DNA from: Promethearchaeota archaeon
Lineage (GTDB): Archaea; Asgardarchaeota; Lokiarchaeia; Sigyniarchaeales; SOKP01
Direction: 5' to 3'
DNA: 64,000 nucleotides
Assembly (NCBI GenBank): GCA_019058365.1
Contig: JAHPZE010000016.1
Location: forward strand, 1-64,000
Below the pieces are notes generated by a model, which was not told the DNA's origin, searched no databases, and worked only from the letters and a program-made list of their open reading frames with translations. Positions 648 to 6,319 of this stretch are shown piece after piece. A program made the position numbers and the translations under genes. Position 1 is the first letter of the stretch, and each line of letters begins with the position of its first letter.

Positions 648-1190
648 TTATAAAAATCTTTGTTCTTCTTTGTGTTCTTTTACAGAGATTTCTCTGTCAC
701 TAAGGCGGTTGAGTTTAATTAAACTTTCTTTTATAATTTTAATTTCTGCTCTAGTAGTAATTTTGTACTCTTTTAAATTATCAAGGATTTCTTTCTCGCT
801 AAAGCCTTTATTATAAACTTCTGAGAATTTAGCTATAGTTTCTTCATGATAGAAAATGTATTGTTTATTTAAAAATACTATTAACGATTTTTTTTTCTCC
901 TGATTTTGAGATAACTCGAATAATTCATCTCGTATAATTTCGATACGCTTCTTAAACTTTCGTGCTATTATCTCATCTTCGATTTTATAAAATTTTTTCA
1001 TAAATTTGTGAATCTTATTTTTAAAAAACAATTTTGGAATATACGATAAAATAAACAATACTAAAGTGATACCGGACATCCAAATTGCTGCTATTCTACT
1101 GTAAATAACTATAATAATGATAATAAACACAAGAATTAGAAACCATTTTCTTCCAATGGTTTTTGCTATGACTATATACTTTTTTGGCAA
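648..1190 (-). CDS. Hypothetical membrane protein (two N-terminal TM helices)
   Basis: 180-aa ORF; hydrophobic N-terminal segments, charged C-terminal domain. Confidence 0.6.
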   Translation of the reverse strand: MPKKYIVIAKTIGRKWFLILVFIIIIIVIYSRIAAIWMSGITLVLFILSYIPKLFFKNKIHKFMKKFYKIEDEIIARKFKKRIEIIRDELFELSQNQEKKKSLIVFLNKQYIFYHEETIAKFSEVYNKGFSEKEILDNLKEYKITTRAEIKIIKESLIKLNRLSDREISVKEHKEEQRFL

Positions 1191-1282: not shown

Positions 1283-1466
1283 TATAACCACATAAAAAAG
1301 CGTGACCGGGTATTTTCCTTGTATACCATGACCGTAAGCTAACTTACAGTTTGTAGTTTCCCATAAATCGCAATTACAGTACTATCTACAACGTTAAACA
1401 AGTTTAACTTCCGGGTTCGGATGGTTCCAGCGCAGTAGCGAATTGCTACTAATTCATGTGGTTATA
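1283..1466 (-). other. Precursor processing stem with BHB/BHL-like splicing motif flanking the permuted 5S gene
   Basis: Perfect 11-bp inverted repeat tataaccacat (1283-1293) / atgtggttata (1456-1466); hairpin agtagc/gctact (1434-1450); GCG/CGC helix + UCA bulge + CUGG/CCGG 4-bp helix + AAC unpaired. Confidence 0.8.
1304..1424 (-). rRNA. rrf: 5S rRNA gene, circularly permuted (3' part 1424-1340 precedes 5' part 1339-1304 in the transcript)
   Basis: Minus strand reads CCAUCCGAACCCGGAAGUUAAACUUGUUUAACGUUGUAGAUAGUACUGUAAUUGCGAUUUAUGGGAAACUACAAACUGUAAG-UUA-GCUUACGGUCAUGGUAUACAAGGAAAAUACCCGGUC. 5S landmarks are present (CCGAAC, GAAGUUAA, AGUA/GGAAA loop E). Helices I (CUUACGG/CUGUAAG), II (ACAAG/CUUGU), III (CCGG/CCGG) and V (UUGUAG/CUACAA) all pair. 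Total length is 121 nt. Confidence 0.93.
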
Positions 1467-1483
1467 AACGCTAATCTTAACCA

Positions 1484-1491
1484 TTATATAA
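1484..1491 (-). promoter_or_regulatory. Candidate TATA box for the 5S precursor
   Basis: TTATATAA about 20 nt upstream of the 5' arm of the precursor stem; a second TATA-like TTATAAAA at 1501-1508. Confidence 0.45.
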
Positions 1492-1622
1492 GGTCGGTTA
1501 TTTTATAAGAAAATACCTACTTATATGGTTATAAGTAAATAGGAATAATAAAAGCTAATAATTAAACTTTTTCATAAAGAACGTTAAGTTTATAAGGATT
1601 AAACAAGGAGGTGCTGTTAATC

Positions 1623-2192: not shown

Positions 2193-4316
2193 TTACATCC
2201 CTTTAACGATACGTGAATATTTTCTTAAACCTGTATAAAGAGTTAAAACAGAAACTCCCCCTACTGCAATAATTAAAACTAAAGAGAAAGGAGCTATATA
2301 ATTAATTATATTTTGAGGTATTGAAAAAATATAGCCGGAATTATAAAAGATATCTGTATTATTAGCATAATCTCTTAACACAATAAAGTAAGAATATTCA
2401 CCGGGAGTTAATCTCTCAGTTTTAACTGTTATTAGTTCTTTATTTTCCTCAATGGAGTTTGATAATCCATAGTATATATAATCCATAAAATTATTCTTAG
2501 ATAAAAAAATGTATGCAGATTCAATTCCTGATTTATTGTCATAAGCTTCGATATTGAAAGTAGTTATTTCCGAAGTTTTAGGATTTTTCGGGTTATATTC
2601 TATTCCAAACAACTGAGGTGATGTATTATCTGGAAGTGCTGTAAAATTAAAATATGAAGGAATTAAATTGTGCCCCGTAATTGTTACATTATAACTCTCA
2701 TTTTCTTCAGCAGGAATACGAAAACTCACTAAACCATTCTCATTGGCATATACGGTATGATACTTTCCACCAGAACCTTCAAGATGAACTCGTGCATAAG
2801 GGACAATTCTACTATTCTCATCTTTTATGGTGATCGAGACTAATTGACCTTCATAGATAGTTTCGGTAAATGGATTTAGTGCTAATTTGGGCTCATTGGT
2901 ATAAATATCCACTTCAGGATCTCCTAAAAGACAATAAGTGAGGAGTTGTTTACGCTGAAAATCAAAAAAAGTTGAACCACTTCCATACTTATAATAATCA
3001 CTATTCATATATGCTACTTTTGAATCATATAAAGCCTTACCTTGCTGAAAGTTTTTATTAAGGAAAAACTCTTTCCAAAATAATTTTGCATTTCCACGAT
3101 TTAACATTTCAAGATTATAATCATCTTCAAAATACCATGTGACTCTTAATCCTCCAATCGCACCAATCGCACCACCTTTATCCTTTTTTATTAAAGTTTC
3201 ACCGATGTTATCATCATTATTATCATAGCTAGAAGTTGAGCAAGCATCTAAATATACTAAGGAAGGCATGTAATCATTTGAGCTTGAACTAGCATAAGAG
3301 GAAGAATAAGCCCATGTAGATGGATTTCTATAGTAATATGATGGAAGTCCATGACCTGCCATTAATACTGTTGAATATCCATTATTAAAATAATTATAAA
3401 GAACCGCTCTAGAAAGATTTCCTGCTTCTTCTACCAAATGAGTATAATTTACTGTATCTCTAGCATAATTTTCGATAATATAACTTGTTAAAAGACTCTC
3501 ATATTCTCCATCTGGATCTAAACTGCTGGGATAATCAGATATCCCCCCTGCTAATAGCATTCTATTCATCCAATCACCTACTTCCGGATTAGACTCATAT
3601 TTCAAGGTTTTATTTACCATTATCTCAAGTTCATTAGCATTATCTGCAGGAAACCTACCAACATAAACTTCAGGATCCCATGCGATTTCATCTAAGCCAT
3701 AAGCATTATCGTATGGAGATTCTCCCCAATTTCCATCTCCATCACTATCCCAGGTGCCATTGAGGTCTGCATAATAAAAATCGGTAGGTTTATATTCTTT
3801 ATCTCCAACAGATTCAGTTCTTCCCTCTCCAAATCTAATTACATCGGGATTGTATACATATCGTATAGGAATTAAATCATTCTGAGCATCTCCTGCTAAG
3901 AGAACCCATTGAATGTTTTCAGTTTCATAATATGATTTTATCATATTTCGAATTTTTTCTGCATCGTCAACTCCTTCATATAAAGAGAAATTACTTAAAA
4001 TAATGGTTTTTACACCTTTCTCATTATTCCATTCCATCAAGGGTTTAACAGCATCGATAAAATCAGTCCTATTTGGAGTTATTATTAACATTTCAATTTT
4101 AGGGTTATACCAGAGATCATTTAATGAAGTATATTCAATATCTGGTAAAACAGACAAATTATCATTTAAATCTCCATTGGCAGTTTTAATCCTTTCTAAA
4201 GATATATGCTCTCCAGGAGTAGTAGAATTATAGTATAAATTGATACTAATGATAGGAGTGAAAGTAAATATTAAGATAGTCAAGTAGATAAATTTTTTAA
4301 AAGAAACCCTAACCAT
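2193..4316 (-). CDS. Peptidase C25 (gingipain family) cysteine peptidase, secreted and membrane-anchored
   Basis: WVLLAGD, TDFYYADL, VGRFP, catalytic GHG and DAC motifs, LLGDP; N-terminal signal/TM and C-terminal TM helix. Confidence 0.85.
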   Translation of the reverse strand: MVRVSFKKFIYLTILIFTFTPIISINLYYNSTTPGEHISLERIKTANGDLNDNLSVLPDIEYTSLNDLWYNPKIEMLIITPNRTDFIDAVKPLMEWNNEKGVKTIILSNFSLYEGVDDAEKIRNMIKSYYETENIQWVLLAGDAQNDLIPIRYVYNPDVIRFGEGRTESVGDKEYKPTDFYYADLNGTWDSDGDGNWGESPYDNAYGLDEIAWDPEVYVGRFPADNANELEIMVNKTLKYESNPEVGDWMNRMLLAGGISDYPSSLDPDGEYESLLTSYIIENYARDTVNYTHLVEEAGNLSRAVLYNYFNNGYSTVLMAGHGLPSYYYRNPSTWAYSSSYASSSSNDYMPSLVYLDACSTSSYDNNDDNIGETLIKKDKGGAIGAIGGLRVTWYFEDDYNLEMLNRGNAKLFWKEFFLNKNFQQGKALYDSKVAYMNSDYYKYGSGSTFFDFQRKQLLTYCLLGDPEVDIYTNEPKLALNPFTETIYEGQLVSITIKDENSRIVPYARVHLEGSGGKYHTVYANENGLVSFRIPAEENESYNVTITGHNLIPSYFNFTALPDNTSPQLFGIEYNPKNPKTSEITTFNIEAYDNKSGIESAYIFLSKNNFMDYIYYGLSNSIEENKELITVKTERLTPGEYSYFIVLRDYANNTDIFYNSGYIFSIPQNIINYIAPFSLVLIIAVGGVSVLTLYTGLRKYSRIVKGM

Positions 4317-4765: not shown

Positions 4766-6319
4766 ATGTCGTATGATTTAACTGATATTGGTGGCATTGG
4801 GAAAGCAACTGCAGAGAAAATGAAAGCTGCAGGAATAGATTCTATTGAAAAATTAGCTAGAATTAAACCAGATGATTTAACAAAATTAAAAATTAAAGGT
4901 GTTGGAAAAACAACAGCACAAAAATATATCGATAATGCTTTACAATTACTTGAAGAAATTAGTCCTCAAGAAGAACCTAAATCTGAAGGAAAAGCAATTT
5001 CAGAAGTTAAAACTAAACCTATTTCCAAACCCAAACCTAAAACTGAAGCTTCAAATATTAAAGAATTAATAAAACAGCAAGCTGAATGCAATATTGGGTT
5101 AGTTGGCCATGTAGACCACGGTAAGACAACACTAGTGAAAGCTCTTACAGGGGATTGGACAGATAGACATTCAGAAGAGCAAGAAAGAGGAATTTCTATA
5201 AAATTGGGATACTCAAATGCAACTATTTTATATTGTCCGGCTTGTGACGAGTTTTTAACATATTACTTAGCAGAAAAGGCAAGGGAAAATGGACAACCTC
5301 GTTTTTTGTGTCCAAAATGTAAAGAGCAGTTGGAATTTAGAAGAAATATTTCATTTGTCGATGCTCCTGGTCATGAAATCTTAATGGCAACAATGTTAAG
5401 TGGTGCTTCATTGATGGATGGTGCATGTTTATTAATCGCAGCAGATGAGGTATGTCCTCAACCACAAACAAGAGAACATTTAGAAGCATTACATATAGCT
5501 AGTATAGAAAATATTATCATACTACAAAATAAAATTGATGCGGTTTCACGAGAGCAAGCAATGGAGAATTATCAACAAATAAAAGAATTTATTAAAGGTA
5601 CTATTGCTGAAAATGCGCCAATTATACCAATTTCAGCTGTATTTGGAGCAAATATCGGTCTAATTTTAAGAGCATTTGAAGAAATTATTCCAACTCCTGA
5701 ATTTAGTGAAGGAGACTTCCAATTCTTAATCGCAAGATCTTTTGACATTAATCGACCAGGGAAAGAAATCATTGATCTAAAGGGTGGTGTAATAGGTGGC
5801 TCTGTTTTAAAAGGTAAAATTAATGTCGGTGAACAAATTGAAATTCGTCCTGGTTTACGAATAAAAGATAATTACACTCCTTTGAAATCCACTGTTGTAA
5901 GTATTAGTCAGGGAAGTAATCTATTGGATAATGCAAAACCAGGGGGGCTTATAGGTTTGGGAACTAAATTAGATCCTGCTTTAACTAAGGGTGATCACTT
6001 AATCGGTCATTTAGTTGGAAAACCTGGTACCTTACCGGATGTTCTCGATGAAGTAGAATTAAAAATAAATCTTTTAGATAGGGTGATTGGTTCTGAACAG
6101 ATGCTTAGAGTCCATTCAGTAAAACATAATGAAAAATTATTACTAGTAGTCGGAACAGAAAAAACGGGGGGAACAGTGACGAAAATACTGAAAAATAGCG
6201 TTATCTTAAAATTAAATCCTCCAATATGTCCTCCAGAAAATTTCATCTATGCTATCTCGAGAATTATAAATAGAAGATATCGATTAATTGGCTATGGAGA
6301 GGTAATAGATCGTAGTTAG
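4766..6319 (+). CDS. eif2g: Translation initiation factor 2 subunit gamma with N-terminal helix-hairpin-helix extension
   Basis: GHVDHGKT, RGISIKLGY, DAPGH, MLSGA, PQPQTREH, NKID, RSFDINRPG, RLIGYG; the first ~60 aa are HhH (IGGIGKATAEKM...GVGKTTA). Confidence 0.95.
   Translation: MSYDLTDIGGIGKATAEKMKAAGIDSIEKLARIKPDDLTKLKIKGVGKTTAQKYIDNALQLLEEISPQEEPKSEGKAISEVKTKPISKPKPKTEASNIKELIKQQAECNIGLVGHVDHGKTTLVKALTGDWTDRHSEEQERGISIKLGYSNATILYCPACDEFLTYYLAEKARENGQPRFLCPKCKEQLEFRRNISFVDAPGHEILMATMLSGASLMDGACLLIAADEVCPQPQTREHLEALHIASIENIIILQNKIDAVSREQAMENYQQIKEFIKGTIAENAPIIPISAVFGANIGLILRAFEEIIPTPEFSEGDFQFLIARSFDINRPGKEIIDLKGGVIGGSVLKGKINVGEQIEIRPGLRIKDNYTPLKSTVVSISQGSNLLDNAKPGGLIGLGTKLDPALTKGDHLIGHLVGKPGTLPDVLDEVELKINLLDRVIGSEQMLRVHSVKHNEKLLLVVGTEKTGGTVTKILKNSVILKLNPPICPPENFIYAISRIINRRYRLIGYGEVIDRS

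What the first reader, a model, noticed from the sequence alone, without database searches (positions are those of the whole stretch)
1304..1424. Circularly permuted 5S rRNA gene in an Asgard-type archaeon
Seen: on the minus strand, the part of 5S rRNA from mid loop C to the 3' end (1424-1340) comes first. It runs without a spacer into the canonical 5' part (1339-1304, GCUUACGGUCAU...ACCCGGUC). Re-ordering gives a complete 121-nt 5S rRNA with intact helices I-V and loop E. Established: permuted genes matured by the tRNA splicing machinery are known for tRNAs (Cyanidioschyzon, Thermofilum) and for Thermoproteus SRP RNA, and permuted 5S-like RNAs occur in some algal mitochondria. I am not aware of a permuted 5S rRNA gene described in archaea. 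Inference: this is a functional rrf that standard covariance-model annotation would miss or call partial.
Basis: partly seen in the sequence, partly recalled or inferred. Interest (0 to 1): 0.96.

Follow-up and report, generated by a model that had tools for sequence, protein, structure and literature searches.

The report
Back-to-front, ring-forming Asgard 5S rRNA gene
This Asgard archaeon writes its only 5S ribosomal RNA gene back half first, between tRNA-splicing cut signals, and RNA from four environmental studies contains the predicted cut-and-rejoined 121-base ring, which explains why standard tools find no 5S gene in most of these close relatives of eukaryotes.

Summary
Confirmed. Window 1424-1304 (minus strand) is a 121-nt 5S rRNA gene with its 3' 85 nt before its 5' 36 nt; a UUAG tetraloop joins the native ends. 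It is the only 5S in the genome. Contigs from four metatranscriptome studies cover only 1304-1424 and show the joint 1424->1304 at that base, one 100% identical to the window; several are closed 121-nt cycles. The genome encodes a two-subunit splicing endonuclease, RtcB, uL5 and uL18. The permuted order occurs in 91 of 101 family genomes and about 20 Asgard families, at five or more break points, nearly always BHB-bounded; four families keep ordinary genes. Many relatives also carry 30-nt BHB mini-introns. Shown: gene order, conservation, joined RNA. Inferred: the enzymes, and that the ring itself is in the ribosome (about 0.65). It works like the permuted Thermoproteus SRP RNA; I found no paper on a permuted archaeal 5S gene. 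This scan noted the same thing on other DNA over 50 times.

The parts
1340..1424 (-). 3' part of 5S rRNA, encoded first: loop C, helix III 3' strand (1414-1411), helix II 3' strand (1402-1393), helix V, loop E, helix IV, helix I 3' strand (1350-1343)
1304..1339 (-). 5' part of 5S rRNA, encoded second: helix I 5' strand (1338-1331), loop A, helix II 5' strand (1326-1318), loop B, helix III 5' strand (1309-1306)
1339..1342 (-). UUAG tetraloop joining the native 3' and 5' ends and capping helix I (UUCG or UUUG in many relatives)
   Evidence: crossed by RNA contigs
1424..1433 (-). Leader half of the BHB motif: outer helix GCG (1433-1431), central helix CUGG (1430-1427), bulge AA^C with the cut between 1425 and 1424
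   Evidence: RNA joint at 1424
1300..1309 (-). Trailer half of the BHB motif: central helix CCGG (1309-1306), bulge UC^A with the cut between 1304 and 1303, outer helix CGC (1302-1300)
   Evidence: RNA joint at 1304
1434..1451 (-). Small hairpin in the leader, conserved among genes with this break point
1453..1465 (-). 5' arm of the outer leader-trailer processing stem
1284..1296 (-). 3' arm of the outer leader-trailer processing stem (overlaps a U6 run at 1299-1294)
1484..1503 (-). Putative archaeal promoter: TATA box at 1491-1484 with a conserved BRE-like stretch upstream; predicts a start near 1465-1460
   Evidence: read from sequence, conserved in relatives; start site not tested

Best explanation
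This is the organism's single, functional 5S rRNA gene, circularly permuted in the DNA. (1, inferred) A stand-alone promoter makes a ~185-nt precursor whose leader and trailer pair into a long stem. (2, shown as sequence) The stem's inner end forms a relaxed BHB motif, with leader CUGG borrowing the 5' strand of helix III. (3, inferred) The two-subunit tRNA splicing endonuclease cuts after the second base of each bulge and RtcB ligates the ends. (4, shown in RNA contigs) The product is a 121-nt RNA joined at 1304|1424 that also keeps the tetraloop across the native ends, i.e. a ring. (5, inferred) Helix III re-pairs, the ring folds as normal 5S, binds uL5 and uL18 and enters the large subunit, most likely still closed (about 0.65 for this last step).
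For: Only 5S in the genome. The BHB cut restores the canonical junction with no base gained or lost here and in nearly all relatives examined, at five or more break points and with outer-helix sequences that differ but still pair. RNA contigs of 4 runs from 4 studies: depth only on 1304-1424, none on leader or trailer; joint 'goes back 121' from 1424 to 1304 with no ambiguous letters; X1 record 1 has no mismatch; 150-151-nt contigs equal one turn plus 30 nt, as expected for a closed cycle in a k=31 assembly (the k-mer reading is my inference). Relatives that encode this joint in DNA (other break point) are at most 104/121 identical, so they cannot be the source of the 98-100% identical contigs. 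Machinery present: two endonuclease subunits, the catalytic one closest to A. pernix 3P1Z_B/3AJV_B and aligning through the loop with the conserved Lys, the type that cuts relaxed BHBs (PMC6379350); RtcB, uL18, uL5. 30-nt BHB-bounded inserts in relatives point to the same enzyme acting on this RNA.
Against: The RNA data are assembled contigs, not raw reads: they give no share of circular versus linear molecules, and library preparation may favour circles. No DNA run was laid as a control and the cross-run check was not given. Only X1 matches the window exactly; the other runs are close relatives. The motif lacks the exon-side helix, so it is not a strict BHB. Permuted tRNAs pass through a circle and are then re-opened, so a ring need not be the end product. 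No ribosome fraction or enzyme assay was available.
Confidence: 0.86

Rival explanations
1. The ring is only an intermediate: after BHB cutting and ligation, a nuclease opens the tetraloop on helix I and the ribosome holds an ordinary linear 5S, as with permuted tRNAs. This differs from the best explanation only in the last step.
For: Precedent in permuted tRNAs, which are cleaved and ligated into the correct order (PMC4267664). Contigs cannot show how many molecules are open.
Against: There is no spacer to remove: only a 4-nt loop, often the very stable UUCG type. All cycle-length contigs cross that loop. The closest precedent, Thermoproteus SRP RNA, stays circular, and circular 23S rRNA is reported in mature archaeal ribosomes (PMC12918454).
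Confidence: 0.28
2. The working molecule is a linear permuted 5S with free ends in loop C, as in brown-algal mitochondria; the joined form is a minor by-product or a reverse-transcription artefact.
For: Permuted 5S RNAs that stay permuted exist in stramenopile mitochondria (PMC4267664). Low-level, unvalidated 5S circles were seen in Sulfolobus (PMC3326292).
Against: The joint falls on the predicted BHB cut in four studies with no microhomology, at contig depth up to 430. The BHB is kept at every break point examined. An open loop C would split the conserved uL5-binding loop (own knowledge).
Confidence: 0.06
3. Assembly artefact, collapsed tandem repeat or pseudogene, with the true 5S gene unassembled elsewhere.
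For: G000 is a 54-contig draft with 6.6% contamination, and the locus is 1.3 kb from a contig end; rRNA genes are often missing from such bins.
Against: Permuted order in 91 of 101 family genomes and single-contig genomes; the same downstream neighbour gene in 53 of 55 loci; covariation; none of 36 congeners has a 5S hit over the Rfam cut-off; the RNA is expressed.
Confidence: 0.01

Closest known systems
Permuted, circular SRP RNA of Thermoproteus tenax and T. uzoniensis (Plagens et al. 2015, PMC4731332)
   Same: [quoted passage not shown]
   Different: Here the RNA is a ribosomal RNA. It spans about 20 families rather than one genus, the break point varies, many copies carry extra mini-introns, and enzyme and function are not yet tested.
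Circularly permuted tRNA genes (Cyanidioschyzon merolae, Soma 2007; archaea, Chan 2011; as cited in PMC4267664 and PMC6379350)
   Same: Halves inverted in the gene, BHB-type motifs at the new ends, circular intermediate.
   Different: tRNAs are re-opened at their native ends (removal of a spacer: own knowledge); here the native ends are joined by a 4-nt loop with no spacer.
Permuted mitochondrial 5S rRNA of brown algae and other stramenopiles (Valach et al. 2014, PMC4267664)
   Same: 5S gene with shifted ends and helix I closed as a hairpin; poorly detected by RF00001.
   Different: Those stay permuted and linear, open at the three-way junction, with no splicing step described; this one breaks in loop C or loop B and is re-joined.
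Circular or permuted archaeal 23S rRNA (PMC7758197, PMC12918454, bioRxiv 10.64898/2026.03.23.713588) and minor 5S circles in Sulfolobus and Halobacterium (PMC3326292)
   Same: BHB processing stems and ligation give circular rRNA; circular 23S is reported in mature ribosomes.
   Different: Those genes are in normal order and circularization joins the outer ends; PMC12918454 says the step applies to 16S and 23S but not 5S. Here the gene itself is permuted, so ligation is needed to make a normal 5S.

Membership tests
5S rRNA (Rfam RF00001) | Score above the gathering cut-off (38 bits) in native order | tested here: not met
   28.9 bits; expected for a permuted gene
5S rRNA (Rfam RF00001) | Full-length match after re-ordering | tested here: met
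   Sequence HMM from 12 canonical Asgard 5S genes: 43.7 bits, positions 4-114 of 118, best of all rotations. RF00001 itself could not be run on the re-ordered sequence.
5S rRNA (Rfam RF00001) | Three-way structure with helices I-V and loop E | tested here: met
   Helices I, II, IV, V: 17 of 28 pairs with two-sided changes; helix III and loop E read from sequence and the Rfam alignment
5S rRNA (Rfam RF00001) | Bound to uL5/uL18 in the large subunit | not testable with these tools
   Both protein genes are present; binding not tested
Permuted RNA genes matured by tRNA splicing (Thermoproteus SRP RNA, permuted tRNAs) | 3' part encoded before 5' part in one transcription unit | tested here: met
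Permuted RNA genes matured by tRNA splicing (Thermoproteus SRP RNA, permuted tRNAs) | BHB or relaxed BHB at the new ends whose cut restores the canonical sequence | tested here: met
   relaxed type, no exon-side helix
Permuted RNA genes matured by tRNA splicing (Thermoproteus SRP RNA, permuted tRNAs) | Ligated junction present in RNA | tested here: met
   Joint 1424->1304 in contigs of four RNA runs; no DNA run laid as control
Permuted RNA genes matured by tRNA splicing (Thermoproteus SRP RNA, permuted tRNAs) | Cleavage by the splicing endonuclease shown biochemically | not testable with these tools
   Genes for a two-subunit enzyme and RtcB present
Permuted RNA genes matured by tRNA splicing (Thermoproteus SRP RNA, permuted tRNAs) | Mature form: closed circle (SRP type) or re-opened (tRNA type) | tested here: inconclusive
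   Contigs cross both junctions, so rings exist, but their share is unknown
Stramenopile mitochondrial permuted 5S (mtPerm-5S) | Ends at the three-way junction, RNA stays permuted and unligated | tested here: not met
   Break is at loop C and the ends are joined in RNA

The most novel reading that the evidence does not exclude
Most Asgard lineages build ribosomes with a covalently closed 5S rRNA made by the tRNA splicing machinery from a permuted, sometimes intron-bearing gene, and the break point moves between sites during evolution inside unchanged flanks, possibly by mis-targeted reverse splicing and reverse transcription. Ordinary linear 5S genes in some Asgard families, and perhaps in eukaryotes, would then be secondary or the retained minority state.
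Probability: 0.55. Interest if true: 0.95.

Novelty: new variant of a known kind. Interest (0 to 1): 0.88.

Why it matters
5S rRNA is a universal ribosomal component thought to be easy to find and not to need circularization. Wu et al. 2022 (PMC8813620) reported that 5S genes could not be predicted in circularized Asgard genomes; a permuted gene explains this, and a permuted-order model recovers the genes. It makes the tRNA splicing endonuclease and RtcB likely essential for ribosome assembly in the archaea closest to eukaryotes, implies a ring-shaped rRNA, and gives an exact junction to test by RT-PCR, RNase R or cryo-EM. The cultured-size genomes of the sister family have ordinary 5S genes, which may be why it was overlooked.

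Tried and rejected
A second, canonical 5S in G000: none by RF00001, the canonical HMM, BLAST of either part or the permuted model; the weak HMM hit on C33 (E 0.02) reads like coding sequence and has no RF00001 support. DNA-encoded joint from relatives with the other break point as the source of the RNA contigs: rejected by identity. Minimum-free-energy folding does not recover the 5S fold or the BHB (z -0.89); forcing the BHB costs about 2 kcal/mol, so folding energy is neutral evidence. The sigma-70 promoter and terminator scan does not suit archaea and gave nothing useful. ARAGORN intron calls on the genome were too noisy to compare with the 5S inserts. My first reading of the 30-nt inserts as expansion segments was dropped when most proved BHB-bounded. 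Ten literature searches found no permuted or circular archaeal 5S gene (one search was on the endonuclease); the library lacks most subscription journals. RF00001 could not be run on the re-ordered sequence.

Full report
Observation. On the minus strand, 1424-1340 holds the 3' 85 nt of a 5S rRNA and 1339-1304 the 5' 36 nt, with no spacer. Rfam reports nothing at gathering level in the window; RF00001 reaches 28.9 bits only by forcing leader sequence into the 5' end of the model. I built a sequence HMM from 12 canonical 5S genes of a sister family (found) and scored all 121 rotations of the unit. The best are rotations 84-85, the proposed re-ordering: 43.7 bits and nearly full length, against 28.8 bits and partial for the native order. 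Helices I, II, IV and V covary across 23 sequences (88% of cells paired, 17 of 28 pairs with two-sided changes, 32-51% paired when slid). Helix I is closed by a UUAG loop at 1342-1339.

Organism and copy number. Contigs carrying the same permuted motif are labelled Promethearchaeota archaeon, so the lineage is Asgard. No other 5S is found in G000 by four methods. The genome is a draft, so this is 'not found', but none of 36 congeners has a 5S hit over the Rfam cut-off while 35 match the permuted locus. The gene stands alone between two protein genes and has a conserved TATA box at 1491-1484.

The processing signal. The flanks pair into a conserved outer stem (1465-1453 with 1296-1284). Inside it, leader GCG-CUGG-AA^C faces CCGG-UC^A-CGC: a three-pair outer helix, two 3-nt bulges and a 4-bp central helix. 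Cutting after the second base of each bulge, the standard rule for archaeal splicing endonucleases (own knowledge), releases exactly 1424-1304, and ligation restores the canonical loop C. The exon-side helix is missing, so the motif is of the relaxed type. G000 encodes two endonuclease subunits: one keeps the catalytic Tyr, His and Lys and is closest to the A. pernix enzyme, aligning through the loop with the conserved Lys; the other lacks the His. Only this class and the epsilon-2 class cut relaxed BHBs efficiently (PMC6379350). RtcB, uL18 and uL5 are present.

RNA evidence. Four metatranscriptome runs from four studies were laid on 1200-1560. In all four, depth is confined to 1304-1424 and is zero over leader and trailer. 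All four show one joint, from 1424 back to 1304, with no letters that fit on both sides. X1 record 1 has no mismatch; X10 and X5 records differ at 2-3 places. Several contigs are 150-151 nt, one turn plus 30, and cross both the new joint and the tetraloop, which is how a closed cycle appears in a k=31 assembly (inference). Relatives with the other break point encode this joint in DNA, but they are at most 104/121 identical, so they do not explain these contigs. Limits: these are contigs, not reads; no DNA run was laid; the share of rings is unknown.

Distribution. A covariance model of the permuted order (R1) scores canonical genes at 35 bits or less and permuted ones mostly above 45. It hits 91 of 101 genomes of the family and 54 of 151 phylum genomes above 45 bits, in 12 families. 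Direct reading adds families f3-f7, f10, f14, f19 and f22, about 20 in all. Families f2, f12, f17 and f21 have ordinary genes in the genomes tested. The commonest break lies after helix III, at window-equivalent 1409/1408 or one base to either side; one family breaks in loop B; the window's break at loop C was seen only in its own family. In nearly every case examined a BHB geometry restores the canonical junction, with outer helices that differ in sequence but still pair; a few, such as L116 and L118, fit less well.

Mobile break point and introns. Within the family both break points use the same flanks and the same palindromic CCGG, which occurs on both strands of helix III. On a tree of the neighbouring protein the loop C type is not one clade (at least 3 forced changes; p-AU 4e-92 on a 30-row quick tree), so the break moved more than once or the small locus was exchanged between lineages. 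In 19 of 21 distinct insert-bearing sequences, removing a 30-31-nt BHB-bounded piece scores within 6 points of the best possible deletion and restores 120-121 nt; one gene has two such pieces. These look like mini-introns; their removal from RNA was not tested.

Mechanism and odds. Shown: gene order, conservation, structure, BHB geometry, joined RNA. Inferred: transcription start, the enzymes, and ribosome incorporation. I put 0.86 on a functional 5S made by BHB cutting and ligation through a ring, and about 0.65 on the ring being the form in the ribosome. Against re-opening: no spacer, a stable tetraloop, and the SRP RNA and 23S precedents.

Comparison and novelty. It works like the permuted SRP RNA of Thermoproteus (PMC4731332) and meets the testable features of permuted genes matured by tRNA splicing. 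It differs from the algal mitochondrial permuted 5S, which stays unligated (PMC4267664), and from circular 23S rRNA, whose gene order is normal. My literature searches found no permuted archaeal 5S gene; Wu et al. 2022 state that 5S genes could not be predicted in their Asgard genomes. I class it as a new variant of a known kind. This scan has noted the same arrangement in at least 48 other genomes; those notes are unchecked leads and my scores rest on the tests above. One later check there priced the claim of joined ends and a ring in the ribosome at 35/100; the RNA contigs here support the joining step directly, not the ribosome step.

Noticed in passing
L019-L024, L027, L029, L030, L032-L036, L084, L088, L090, L092, L100, L132 (5S genes of relatives): 30-nt BHB-bounded inserts, probably mini-introns, in loop C or helix IV at several positions; L035 has two. 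Removal restores a 120-121-nt 5S.
   Followed up: partly
Family f1 loci L002-L036, L079-L101: Two break points 16 nt apart share the same flanks; the loop C type is not monophyletic on the neighbouring gene's tree.
   Followed up: partly
L095 (5S gene, tip of helix I): A ~31-nt hairpin insert in the loop joining the native ends; my script found no BHB that removes it cleanly.
   Followed up: partly
L136 and L138 (G085, single-contig genome): Two permuted 5S copies with different leaders and trailers in one genome.
   Followed up: no
Run X1, record 2, laid on window 1304-1349: A second 151-nt contig from a more distant relative whose loose end continues into loop C, suggesting another organism's 5S ring.
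   Followed up: no
L123:380-551 (G074): A partial second copy of the permuted 5S start beside an N gap; probably a scaffolding artefact.
   Followed up: partly
window 4766-6319 (+): Translation initiation factor IF-2 gamma with a ~100-aa N-terminal extension that weakly matches the RadA N-terminal region.
   Followed up: no
window 2193-4316 (-): 707-aa membrane-anchored ORF that by eye resembles a gingipain-type (C25) peptidase; not tested.
   Followed up: no
window 648-1190 (-): 180-aa protein with no NCBIfam match, found next to the 5S gene in 53 of 55 family loci.
   Followed up: partly
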